From the human T2T-CHM13v2.0 reference genome, Homo sapiens: DNA of 64,000 nucleotides. Below the pieces are notes generated by a model, which worked only from the letters and a program-made list of their open reading frames with translations, ran no database searches and was not told the origin of the DNA. This document shows, in pieces, positions 61,240-63,787 of this stretch (position 1 is its first letter; every line of letters starts with the position of its first letter). The stretch lies in assembly GCF_009914755.1 (NCBI RefSeq), contig NC_060947.1. The stretch is one strand, 5' to 3'. Position numbers and translations under genes: made by a program.

Positions 61240-61915
61240 CCGGGTTGGAAACAGACCGACAGGACTCAGGAGGTGAGAAGGCTGCCGCAGCTGCCGCGGC
61301 CCGCGAAACCACTGCCCGCCGCGGGCCGCCAGGCTCTACCTCCAGAAAACCCTCCCCCTTCAGGGCCCGGCGCAAGATGGTGGCCCACCAGCTACCACGC
61401 CGCCAAGCCTGTCCCCTCCCCCGCACCCCCGTCGATCCGCACCGGCATAGAGACCCTCAGCCAGCCGCCCTCAGAACCGCCCTCTGGGGAAGGCTGCCTC
61501 GGCCGCGCGGGAGAGCTGCTGCCTCCTTCCGCGCGGCACAGGCGGGGGCGGGGGCCGCTTACCGAGAGCAGAGCAGATCGGTCTGACTGGGGTTCGGATA
61601 AGGAGGAGGAGAAAGAGGAGGAGGAAAGGGAGGAGCGCGAAAAACCTCAGGCGACAGCCTCAGCAACAGCGACTCCCCCGGAGACTTCCAGCGCGGAACC
61701 GGCGTCTCAGCCGGGGGCAGAAGTATATAACTGCACGCGCTGCCTCATGGGTAGACGCCGACTCCACCCCCTGAACATCCGGGGCCTTTTAACCGCCCAC
61801 GGACGGACGGCTGGTACTTACATGTGCACATGTGCAGCTACTTTACTTACCGTCGAAGGCAGCGGAGGAAGTGTAATTGACTAGCGTGGATGCAGCTTTT
61901 CTAAGCAAACGCTCG
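61240..61915. promoter_or_regulatory. CpG island / ZNF280C promoter
   Basis: High GC and CpG density in an AT-rich window; GC boxes GGCGGGGGCGGGGGC at 61541-61555; YY1-like CAAGATGGTGGC at 61373-61384; ETS-like GAGGAAGTG at 61865-61873. Confidence 0.9.
61563..61710 (-). other. ZNF280C: ZNF280C non-coding exon 1 (5' UTR); 5' end approximate
   Basis: Inside the CpG island; donor CTCG|GTAAGC at 61563/61562; TATA-like TTATATAC on the minus strand at ~61723-61730. Confidence 0.75.
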
Positions 61916-62396
61916 ATTTAACCTGGAGTTGTCATCCCAAAAAATACATTGTACCTGACTACAGAGAAACATGAATTCTGGGTCTTCCTTGTGTGTGAGG
62001 GCTAAAGACACGAGTTAAAAATATAAATATATTGTTTTCTGGAAATACTGTACTTGAAACACGTCTCAAAATACTAGTTATTTTTACCTTTTGTTTTAAA
62101 CATATGGTTTTGCTTGTCTCTCTGTTACTTCTAATTGCCATATGGATGCCTATAGTAGGTACAAAAAATGCTAAGGAAAAATACATTTACTCTTACACAC
62201 AAGGAAGACCCAGAATTCATGTTTCTCTGTAGTCAGGTACAATGTATTTTGTGGGATGACAACTCCAGGTTAAATCGAGCGTTTGCTTAGAAAAGCTGCA
62301 TCCACGCTAGTCAATTACACTTCCTCCGCTGCCTTCGACGGTAAGTAAAGTAGCTGCACTTGTGCACATGTAAGTACCAGCCGTCCGTCCGTGGGC
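61795..62396. repeat. Long inverted repeat: 205-bp arms (61795-61999, 62192-62396), 192-bp AT-rich spacer
   Basis: Arms are reverse complements with 3 mismatches by eye (61831/62360, 61940/62251, 61997/62194). Confidence 0.97.
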
Positions 62397-62650
62397 TGGC
62401 CGCGGTGGCTCACACTTCTAATTCCAGCACTTTGGGAGGCTGAGGTGGGTGGATCACCTGGGGTGAGGAGTTTGAGACCACTTCCCTTTCCTCCTCGCCT
62501 TTCTCCTCCTCCTTCTCTGAACCCCAGTCAGCCTGACCAACATAGTGAAACCCCATCTTTACTAAAAATACAAAATTAGCAGGGTGTGGTGGCACATGCC
62601 TGTAATCCCAGCTACTTGGGAGGCTGAGGCGGGAGAATCACTGGAACTTG
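62394..62650 (+). mobile_element. 3'-truncated AluS-type element with a 50-nt non-Alu insert
   Basis: Alu left arm and part of right arm; stops at GAGAATCACTGGAAC with no A-tail; insert at 62481-62530. Confidence 0.9.
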
Positions 62651-62784
62651 TAAATACATTTACAAGAAAAACACTTGCCAAAATACTGCTTACAGAAACA
62701 TTTTCTAGACATTGTGCTTTGAACTGTAAAAGTTTCTTCTCCCAAATTTCTCCACAAGGTTTATAGCAGTACTGGTTCATCTCT

Positions 62785-63078
<294 letters not shown>

Positions 63079-63149
63079 CCAATTCATCTCTTAAGAGTTG
63101 CCCAGACTGAAAATATCGTGTGGCTTACATAACACACACGTAAATCCTG

Positions 63150-63787
63150 TCACTGAATCCTACCATTTTTTTTATTTGAGCTAGTTTTTTCTTTCTTATT
63201 TATACAGCTATTTGCTTCTGACCCTGAAAATAAGCTTTACAGGAAAAGACAGAGAATAATCAAAATAAAACAGTGAAAAGTCCCAAAATCTTGGAGCATG
63301 CATAGTTGGTCCCTGCTTCCGGTCAGGGTGATAAGAAAGTCCGGGCACCTTTTCCTTTGATGCCAGCAGGAAATTTAAAACTAGCAAATCTACAGCCGCA
63401 TGACTCTGCTTTTGGCTGTAGTGGGAAATTTAAAACTTGTGATTCTCCAGCCTGCCTCCTTCTTTGGCATTGGTGGGAAATTTAAAACTGGCAACAAAAA
63501 TTGGTGCAGTTGAGAAATTTAAAACTTGCAAATCTACAGCCTGTGCGGCATTTTCACCAGCCCCACTTCCTAGATGCTATAAAGGCCCATCCAACTTCCT
63601 CTGCCTCTGAAACCAGCCCAGACCTGTTTGCAGCACCCAGCCCTCCCTCACTTACCCCCACTAGTCCCCAGGGTAATAAAATTTCTCTCAAATTCTCTTG
63701 TCATATCTAGTGTCACGAGTGTCCACATCCAACCTAAAATTACGAGGAGGAATGGTCAAACTGCCTCAGCAGGATGACCAGAAAACA
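63150..63787 (+). mobile_element. Probable solo LTR (ERV-type, family not assigned; left boundary uncertain)
   Basis: Repeated enhancer-like motif x4, then CTATAAA at ~63577, AATAAA at ~63676 and a terminal ...AAAACA. Confidence 0.45.

What the first reader, a model, noticed from the sequence alone, without database searches (positions are those of the whole stretch)
62179..62663. Right arm plus truncated Alu form one composite block bracketed by a 12-bp direct repeat
Seen: AAATACATTTAC occurs at 62179-62190 and 62652-62663, exactly flanking [inverted promoter copy][Alu 5' part][exon-1 copy][Alu, ending with no A-tail]. Both captured local pieces read in ZNF280C-sense orientation. Inference: a single chimeric insertion with a target-site duplication, in which synthesis switched templates between an Alu and the gene's own promoter/5' UTR. 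Candidates are L1 RT template switching onto nascent RNA, or microhomology-mediated repair. This would be an unusual route by which a retroelement event creates a promoter palindrome.
Basis: partly seen in the sequence, partly recalled or inferred. Interest (0 to 1): 0.75.

Follow-up and report, generated by a model that had tools for sequence, protein, structure and literature searches.

The report
Stitched local copies make promoter palindrome
Just upstream of the human X-linked gene ZNF280C lies a 461-base insertion built from inverted copies of the gene's promoter, its first exon and an Alu repeat; it likely arose in one old DNA-copying accident on nearby DNA rather than as a jumping-gene insertion, and the 205-base mirror copy of the promoter it left has likely been kept almost identical since by gene conversion.

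Summary
The anatomy is real: a 461-bp insert (62191-62651) between two identical 12-mers, made of an inverted promoter copy, Alu nt 1-87, an inverted exon-1 copy, Alu nt 87-204 and a 4-nt remainder. (1) The Alu part is probably not a new retrotransposition: the inverted full-length Alu 130 bp to the right shares two private alleles found together in 13 of 22,490 comparable Alus, and supplies a 5-bp junction microhomology; likelihood ratio about 12 from Alu letters alone, two sites disagree. (2) The 4-nt remainder completes a 9-bp-stem hairpin, a snap-back signature. So all five pieces can be copied from local DNA of one strand, alternating left and right of the site. (3) The pieces differ in apparent age: promoter arms 3/205 mismatches, exon piece 5/51, Alu 26/204; this points to an old event with later arm-to-arm homogenisation (untested, no primate outgroups here). 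RT switching onto nascent RNA is disfavoured: no A-tail, no endonuclease motif, promoter piece lies upstream of the annotated start. Known kind (multi-fragment local templated duplication); no description of this locus turned up in four searches. Interest moderate.

The parts
62179..62190 (+). left copy of the 12-bp direct repeat (end of left flank)
62192..62396 (+). right arm: inverted copy of promoter 61999->61795, 3 mismatches (62194, 62251, 62360), 9 of 9 CpG kept
62394..62480 (+). Alu nt 1-87; shares private alleles at Alu nt 23 and 72 with the neighbouring Alu; 5-bp microhomology 62392-62396 with the promoter piece if the neighbour is the donor
62481..62531 (+). inverted copy of ZNF280C exon-1 bases 61633->61583, 5 mismatches in 51; 3-bp microhomology 62529-62531 with the next Alu piece
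62530..62647 (+). Alu nt 87-204, in register with the first Alu piece, 3'-truncated, no A-tail
62647..62666 (.). junction hairpin: 9-bp arms (62647-62655 and 62658-62666) around 2 nt; 62648-62651 is the snap-back-type addition
62652..62663 (+). right copy of the 12-bp direct repeat (start of right flank)
61795..61999 (-). donor 1 / left arm: promoter-proximal DNA 95-299 bp upstream of the annotated ZNF280C start
   Evidence: hub annotation
62000..62191 (.). 192-bp AT-rich spacer between the arms, single copy in the genome search
61583..61633 (-). donor 2: purine/pyrimidine-rich part of ZNF280C exon 1
62786..63079 (-). likely donor 3: full-length Alu (AluSp-type; label recalled) in opposite orientation; nt 1-204 (63079->62876) match the insert

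Best explanation
The insert is a five-piece patchwork of inverted copies that likely formed in one old template-switching event on local DNA, with the Alu part likely copied from the neighbouring genomic Alu, and the two 205-bp promoter arms were likely homogenised afterwards by gene conversion. Shown: the pieces, their order, their junction microhomologies, the hairpin and the unequal divergences. Inferred path, written for a top-strand 3' end at 62190: fold back and copy 61999->61795; hop at a 5-bp microhomology to the neighbouring Alu and copy 63079->62993; hop to exon 1 and copy 61633->61583; return at a 3-bp microhomology to the Alu where it left off and copy to 62876; hop to 62666->62658; rejoin the normal template at a 4-bp microhomology 12 bp before the point of departure, which duplicates the 12-mer. 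Both the left donors and the right donors are visited in order along one strand. The enzyme (MMBIR/FoSTeS at a fork, or Pol theta-type synthesis at a staggered break) is not determinable. Inferred age: about or older than the ape/Old World monkey split. Origin about 0.55; later homogenisation about 0.65.
For: All five pieces map to one strand within 610 bp left and 430 bp right of the site in pre-insertion distance. Neighbour shares alleles T23 and G72: 13 of 22,490 A93-type Alus carry both, close to the 9.1 expected by independence, so no subfamily explains it; the other 12 share none of the insert's rarest private alleles at nt 7, 25, 68, 116, 138, 200. Neighbour ties for fewest non-CpG mismatches (10 of 169) among 243 Alus, 30 of them from loci picked genome-wide for likeness to the insert. 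Its two flanking bases extend the junction microhomology from 3 to 5 bp; 14 of 212 Alus have those two bases. Site model: donor vs independent Alu, ratio 2-12 over assumed priors, about 12 at the subfamily ratio counted genome-wide (949:8,460). The 4 nt before the right 12-mer match the snap-back prediction; 0 of 212 Alus read those 4 nt there (3 of 212 read the first three). No A-tail, no TT/AAAA. Age split: non-CpG mismatches 3/187 in arms vs 15/221 in the other pieces, p=0.014; CpG lost 0 of 9 vs 14 of 16, p=3e-5. Insert lacks 6 of the neighbour's 10 private alleles, so a copy from it cannot be recent.
Against: At Alu nt 73 and 103 the insert has the state of a real minor lineage (949 copies) and not the neighbour's; the donor model needs two extra mutations, one a transversion back to the ancestral base. 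The Alu piece starts at Alu nt 1, as cDNA of an Alu RNA would. A 12-bp duplication is typical TPRT size. The insert's Alu is more diverged from the Sp-type consensus (10 of 174 non-CpG) than 8 of 9 sampled Sp-type copies. Shared alleles could come from later conversion between two adjacent inverted Alus. The likelihood model uses rough rates I set. For homogenisation: CpG retention may only reflect low methylation beside the CpG island (the two CpGs the Alu keeps are those next to the arm); if the left arm is fully constrained the non-CpG excess is only p=0.025 (Poisson) or p=0.13 (Fisher). No outgroup sequence was available.
Confidence: 0.5

Rival explanations
1. Tailless Alu retrotransposition with local DNA capture: an independent AluSq2-like RNA (label recalled) was reverse-transcribed from an internal position at a staggered break; while the ends were joined, the free left end folded back on its own strand twice and captured the promoter and exon-1 pieces. 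Arms homogenised later as in the best reading.
For: Alu starts at nt 1 and resumes in register; 12-bp duplication; nt 73/93/103/153/154 fit a lineage of at least 949 copies. Tailless, TSD-flanked Alus without an endonuclease site are described (PMC5402677), as are L1 insertions with <250-bp local templates (10.1101/2024.08.27.596794).
Against: Needs T23+G72 (13 of 22,490), the same narrow subfamily type (11 of 212) and the two flank bases (14 of 212) to match the next-door Alu by chance or by later conversion; described local templates lie within 15 bp of the site, these lie 192 and about 560 bp away; needs truncation and two captures in one event.
Confidence: 0.25
2. RNA-templated version: a reverse transcriptase primed at the break copied minus-strand RNA made locally, from the neighbouring Alu, the region upstream of the start site and exon 1, switching among them.
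For: All three larger pieces read in the same, ZNF280C-sense direction, and the neighbouring Alu is on that strand too; an RNA starting at the neighbour's nt 1 would explain both the 5' end and the shared alleles.
Against: No annotated transcript covers 61795-61999 (gene span ends at 61700); no RNA-only mark (the exon piece stops 20 nt short of the splice donor, no tail); fold-back on DNA gives the same orientation; the junction hairpin is a DNA-end feature.
Confidence: 0.12
3. Two events: an old Alu/exon-1 chimera with its 12-bp duplication, and a much younger inverted duplication of the promoter (arm divergence 1.5%) that landed between the left 12-mer and Alu nt 1. No gene conversion needed.
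For: Explains the unequal divergences directly.
Against: The second event must hit exactly the 12-mer/Alu boundary without loss or new duplication; promoter and exon pieces come from the same strand in sequential order, as one excursion would give; the promoter/Alu junction has 5-bp microhomology with the neighbour.
Confidence: 0.09
4. One recent event copying an already decayed Alu from elsewhere, with error-prone synthesis in the exon piece.
For: Arms 98.5% identical and 12-mers identical.
Against: Best genome-wide Alu matches reach only 95% (3' piece) and 88-89% (5' piece), among 40 of 4,042 candidates scored; exon piece 5/51 vs arms 3/205, p=0.009.
Confidence: 0.04

Closest known systems
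Multi-fragment local non-tandem duplications (Frith & Khan, PMC5829575, Fig. 4E-F and 6F; passages read)
   Same: Two or three non-adjacent local segments copied and inserted side by side between their sources; in Fig. 6F three fragments, one from an Alu; template switching discussed.
   Different: Those are young polymorphisms relative to the reference; this one appears old, has five pieces, alternates between left and right donors with in-register return, and ends in a 12-bp duplication and a hairpin.
Snap-back SD-MMEJ / Pol theta templated insertions (PMC2943611; passages)
   Same: Hairpin-primed synthesis leaving an inverted repeat across the junction; complex inserts from several rounds on both sides of the break.
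   Different: Described at induced breaks in Drosophila with short inserts and usually deletions; here 461 bp with donors hundreds of bp away.
Short-range template switches, four-point model (PMC7954356; passages)
   Same: Reverse-complement copy of nearby DNA creating a near-perfect inverted repeat.
   Different: Single switch, median 12 nt, maximum 128 nt; here five inverted segments up to 205 nt.
L1 'templated insertions' (10.1101/2024.08.27.596794, section 4 read; PMC11702581, passages)
   Same: Local genomic DNA under 250 bp incorporated with a retroelement; fold-back of ORF2p-made ends.
   Different: Typical templates lie within 15 bp and the L1 body is present; here no tail, no endonuclease motif, donors farther away.
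Internally primed, tailless Alu insertions (PMC5402677; passages; the primary paper was not held)
   Same: TSD-flanked Alu without A-tail and without endonuclease site.
   Different: No interleaved local unique DNA in that description; here the Alu may be a copy of the neighbour.
Primate X palindromes under arm-to-arm gene conversion (PMC8981503; passages)
   Same: Inverted arms more alike than their age would predict (inferred here).
   Different: Median arm 37 kb at 99.95% identity versus 205 bp at 98.5%; conversion shown there across species, untested here.

Membership tests
Canonical TPRT Alu insertion | target-site duplication | tested here: met
   12-bp direct repeat
Canonical TPRT Alu insertion | intact 3' end with poly-A tail | tested here: not met
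   Alu ends at nt 204, no tail
Canonical TPRT Alu insertion | endonuclease motif TT/AAAA (as given in PMC13174262) | tested here: not met
   the A-run before the left 12-mer is preceded by GG, not TT; no TTTT/AA at the right end
RT template-switch chimera (U6/L1 type) | partner in the same sense as the retroelement | tested here: met
   promoter and exon pieces read in gene sense ahead of and inside a sense Alu
RT template-switch chimera (U6/L1 type) | partner is a transcribed RNA, with tail and endonuclease site on the insert | tested here: not met
   61795-61999 lies outside the annotated gene span; no tail or motif; unannotated upstream transcripts not testable
Internally primed tailless Alu | TSD, no tail, no endonuclease site | tested here: met
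   definition
Internally primed tailless Alu | Alu derived from an RNA of an independent source element | tested here: inconclusive
   likelihood favours the neighbour about 12:1 from Alu letters; two sites and the nt-1 start point the other way
L1-type templated insertion | template under 250 bp | tested here: met
   205 and 51 bp
L1-type templated insertion | template typically within 15 bp of the site | tested here: not met
   192 bp and about 560 bp away; only the 4-5-nt hairpin piece is that close
Multi-fragment local templated duplication (FoSTeS/MMBIR-like) | every fragment has a local donor | tested here: inconclusive
   met for promoter, exon and hairpin pieces; probable for the Alu pieces
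Multi-fragment local templated duplication (FoSTeS/MMBIR-like) | microhomology at switch points | tested here: met
   5, 3 and 4 bp at 3 of 6 junctions, 1 bp at one, imperfect at two
Multi-fragment local templated duplication (FoSTeS/MMBIR-like) | ancestral empty allele in an outgroup | not testable with these tools
   the genome tool holds no relatives for this genome
Snap-back SD-MMEJ junction | primer repeat on one side and inverted repeat spanning the junction | tested here: met
   9-bp arms 62647-62655/62658-62666
Large X palindrome under gene conversion | kb-scale arms over 99% identical | tested here: not met
   205 bp, 98.5%
Large X palindrome under gene conversion | arms more alike within than between species | not testable with these tools
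   only internal evidence:

The most novel reading that the evidence does not exclude
A fossil five-hop fold-back event with no retrotransposition at all forged a pseudo 'truncated Alu with TSD' and a 205-bp mini-palindrome in the ZNF280C promoter, which has been kept near-identical by arm-to-arm conversion for some 30 million years while the co-inserted 51-bp exon copy and Alu pieces decayed. The locus would be a built-in, same-age length series for non-allelic gene conversion at about the smallest homology that supports it, would flip its 192-bp spacer recurrently, and the right arm would be a live mirror copy of the promoter's factor-binding sites.
Probability: 0.3. Interest if true: 0.62.

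Novelty: new member of a known kind. Interest (0 to 1): 0.42.

Why it matters
If the local-donor reading holds, some truncated 'Alu insertions with a TSD' in primate genomes are DNA-templated copies of their neighbours, which matters for how tailless and internally primed Alus are counted. If the arms were homogenised, palindrome-type concerted evolution works at 205 bp with a 192-bp spacer, some 180 times shorter than the median conserved X palindrome arm, and the 51-bp and Alu pieces of the same event are natural negative controls: directly testable in existing primate T2T assemblies. A near-perfect inverted repeat 95 bp from a start site may also affect ZNF280C transcription or fragility, but nothing here shows a function.

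Tried and rejected
Dispersed or paralogous donors for the promoter and exon pieces: none found. A near-identical Alu donor elsewhere: none among 40 of 4,042 candidates scored; not exhaustive. A hidden subfamily carrying both shared alleles: rejected, 13 observed vs 9.1 expected, p=0.17. Four of the 12 other double-allele Alus also share nt 30 with the insert (p=0.004 nominal) and one (L051) shares nt 101 and 188; these alleles are common in the relevant subset (7 and 5 of 48) and none of the 12 shares the six rarest private alleles, so I did not take them as siblings; the nt-30 excess is unexplained. Flanks as halves of an older repeat that would show the empty site: both single-copy. First allele-pattern search returned 0 because my gap was one base off (corrected in 23, 27). 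A catalogued inversion of the spacer: no hit for five strings in 3 supplement files of PMC10150506 (the two GRCh38-type numbers were my estimates), no mention of the gene in the main text of 10.1101/2021.12.20.472354 (its supplements were not seen and may list it). Bacterial promoter scan: irrelevant. Folding of the arms (-282.5 kcal/mol) follows trivially from the repeat and shows no function. The Alu reference sample is smaller than planned (212 elements from 264 kb), so rare-allele frequencies other than nt 23 and 72 are rough.

Full report
1. Observation. The 12-mer is at 62179-62190 and 62652-62663 and nowhere else in the window; chance is about 5e-6 allowing 25 positions. The 461 bp between are: one unassigned base (62191); the reverse complement of 61795-61999 (62192-62396, 202/205); Alu nt 1-87 (62394-62480); the reverse complement of exon-1 bases 61583-61633 (62481-62531, 46/51); Alu nt 87-204 (62530-62647), in register with the first part; four more bases (62648-62651). 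Genome-wide DNA searches found only the local donor for the promoter and exon pieces and single copies of both flanks; these searches skip common words and do not prove uniqueness. No other inverted repeat of >=100 bp and >=95% within 2 kb occurs in 307,933 bases examined. The right arm is the derived copy because the 12-mers bracket it.

2. The Alu is probably local. A full-length Alu lies on the minus strand at 62786-63079, 123 bp right of the second 12-mer; its diagnostic bases are AluSp-type (label recalled). Against a majority of 212 Alus from the window and 200 kb of another chromosome, insert and neighbour share two non-consensus alleles, T at nt 23 (13 of 212) and G at nt 72 (2 of 212), besides subfamily bases. 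Genome-wide exact patterns among Alus with the nt-93 base gave 13 with both alleles (one is the neighbour), 259 and 737 with one, 21,481 with neither: 13 of 22,490, against 9.1 expected by independence (p=0.17), so no subfamily carries the pair. The other 12 share none of the insert's six rarest private alleles. The neighbour ties for the fewest non-CpG mismatches among 243 Alus, and its two flanking bases lengthen the promoter/Alu microhomology from 3 to 5 bp (14 of 212 Alus have them). Against this: at nt 73 and 103 the insert has the state of a minor lineage with 949 exact-pattern copies versus 8,460 of the neighbour's type; the insert lacks 6 of the neighbour's 10 private alleles; it starts at Alu nt 1. 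A per-site model with rates I set roughly gave donor:independent ratios of 2-12, about 12 at the counted subfamily ratio; the flank match adds a few-fold, the nt-1 start subtracts, the missing tail adds. My judgement is roughly two to one that the Alu descends from the neighbour, by DNA or RNA. Later conversion between the two adjacent Alus is an alternative source of the shared alleles.

3. Junctions. From left to right (gapped view): imperfect 4-5 bp with one unassigned base; 5 bp; imperfect only; 3 bp; 1 bp; 4 bp. The last four inserted bases with the Alu's final C are the reverse complement of 62662-62666, completing a hairpin with 9-bp arms around 2 nt. This is the repeat structure described for snap-back synthesis (PMC2943611, passages). 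The bases are unlikely to be decayed Alu: 0 of 212 Alus read these four, 3 of 212 the first three. The site lacks the TT/AAAA motif (motif as in PMC13174262; sequence).

4. Mechanism (inferred). With the neighbour as donor, every piece is a copy of the top strand within about 600 bp of the site, visited in monotonic order on each side and alternating left, right, left, right, with return 12 bp before the departure point. That is multi-switch templated synthesis at a fork or a staggered break; the 12-mer then need not be an L1 TSD. RNA templates cannot be excluded by orientation, since the neighbour and the gene are both on the minus strand, but the promoter piece lies 95-299 bp upstream of the annotated start, no piece carries an RNA-only mark, and fold-back on DNA gives the same orientation.

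5. Unequal ages. Arms differ at 3/205 and keep 9 of 9 CpGs; the exon piece differs at 5/51 (p=0.009); the Alu differs from the neighbour at 26/204 (p=4e-6) and Alu plus exon piece have lost 14 of 16 CpGs. At non-CpG sites: 3/187 vs 15/221, p=0.014 (a stricter CpG mask gave p=0.038). No Alu above 95% (3' piece) or 88-89% (5' piece) was found among 40 of 4,042 candidates scored. The 6.8% non-CpG figure compares with 5.4% human-macaque and 0.84% human-chimpanzee divergence of X palindrome arms (PMC8981503, passages), so the event is inferred to be about as old as, or older than, the ape/Old World monkey split, and the arms look several times younger. Homogenisation by conversion or hairpin-templated correction is the simplest account; low methylation and constraint on the left arm weaken the test (p=0.025 to 0.13 if only the copy drifts), and a second, later event remains possible. 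I put homogenisation at about 0.65.

6. Comparison with what is known. Closest are the double and triple local non-tandem duplications of Frith & Khan (PMC5829575, passages), the triple one involving an Alu. Related: four-point template switches (PMC7954356, passages), microinversions between inverted repeats (PMC8755829, abstract), L1 templated insertions (10.1101/2024.08.27.596794, section 4; PMC11702581, passages), tailless internally primed Alus (PMC5402677, passages). It fails membership of canonical TPRT Alus and U6/L1-type chimeras (no tail, no motif) and of large X palindromes (size), though it may work like the latter. Searches for the gene with 'inverted repeat' (0 papers), 'promoter' (43 papers, 25 listed), 'inversion' (5 papers, 4 listed) and 'palindrom' (4 papers) showed, from listings only, nothing on this structure; one inversion catalogue's supplements had no hit; subscription papers and bioRxiv supplements were not searched.

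7. Verdict. Real, single-locus, most likely an old multi-switch locally templated insertion: a new member of a known kind, with two attractive but unproven features (an Alu copy made without retrotransposition; concerted evolution of 205-bp arms with same-age internal controls). No function is shown. Interest 0.42; primate orthologues would settle both open points quickly.

Noticed in passing
window 61820-61833 and 62358-62371: Perfect 14-bp palindrome with overlapping E-box-like words in the left arm; the right-arm copy has one mismatch (62360), suggesting that change arose in the copy. An ETS-like word lies at 61867 with its mirror at 62318 (motif names recalled).
   Followed up: partly
window 62491: The mirror position of the annotated start site (61700) falls inside the exon-1 copy: the insert is a mirror of promoter plus exon 1 in which the 161 bp around the start site are replaced by the 87-bp Alu piece.
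   Followed up: partly
window 62394-62404: The only two consensus CpGs kept in the inserted Alu are those adjacent to the right arm, hinting at a methylation boundary there.
   Followed up: no
window 63369-63494 (within about 63200-63750): 52-bp tandem unit, 2.4 copies, with a third similar motif near 63511, followed by TATA-like and poly-A-signal-like words; looks like an LTR-type element on the + strand (identity recalled, not tested).
   Followed up: no
window 62529-62647 vs 62876-62994: The inserted and neighbouring Alus form a close inverted pair (228 bp apart, 91% over 119 bp), the only Alu pair at >=90% over >=100 bp within 2 kb in 307,933 bases examined.
   Followed up: yes
L041, L047, L049, L050: 4 of 12 Alus picked for alleles at nt 23 and 72 also carry the same change at nt 30 (background 12 of 212); unexplained.
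   Followed up: partly
window 61940-61950 and 62177-62187: An 11-bp direct repeat links the left arm with the left 12-mer region; probably chance in AT-rich DNA.
   Followed up: no
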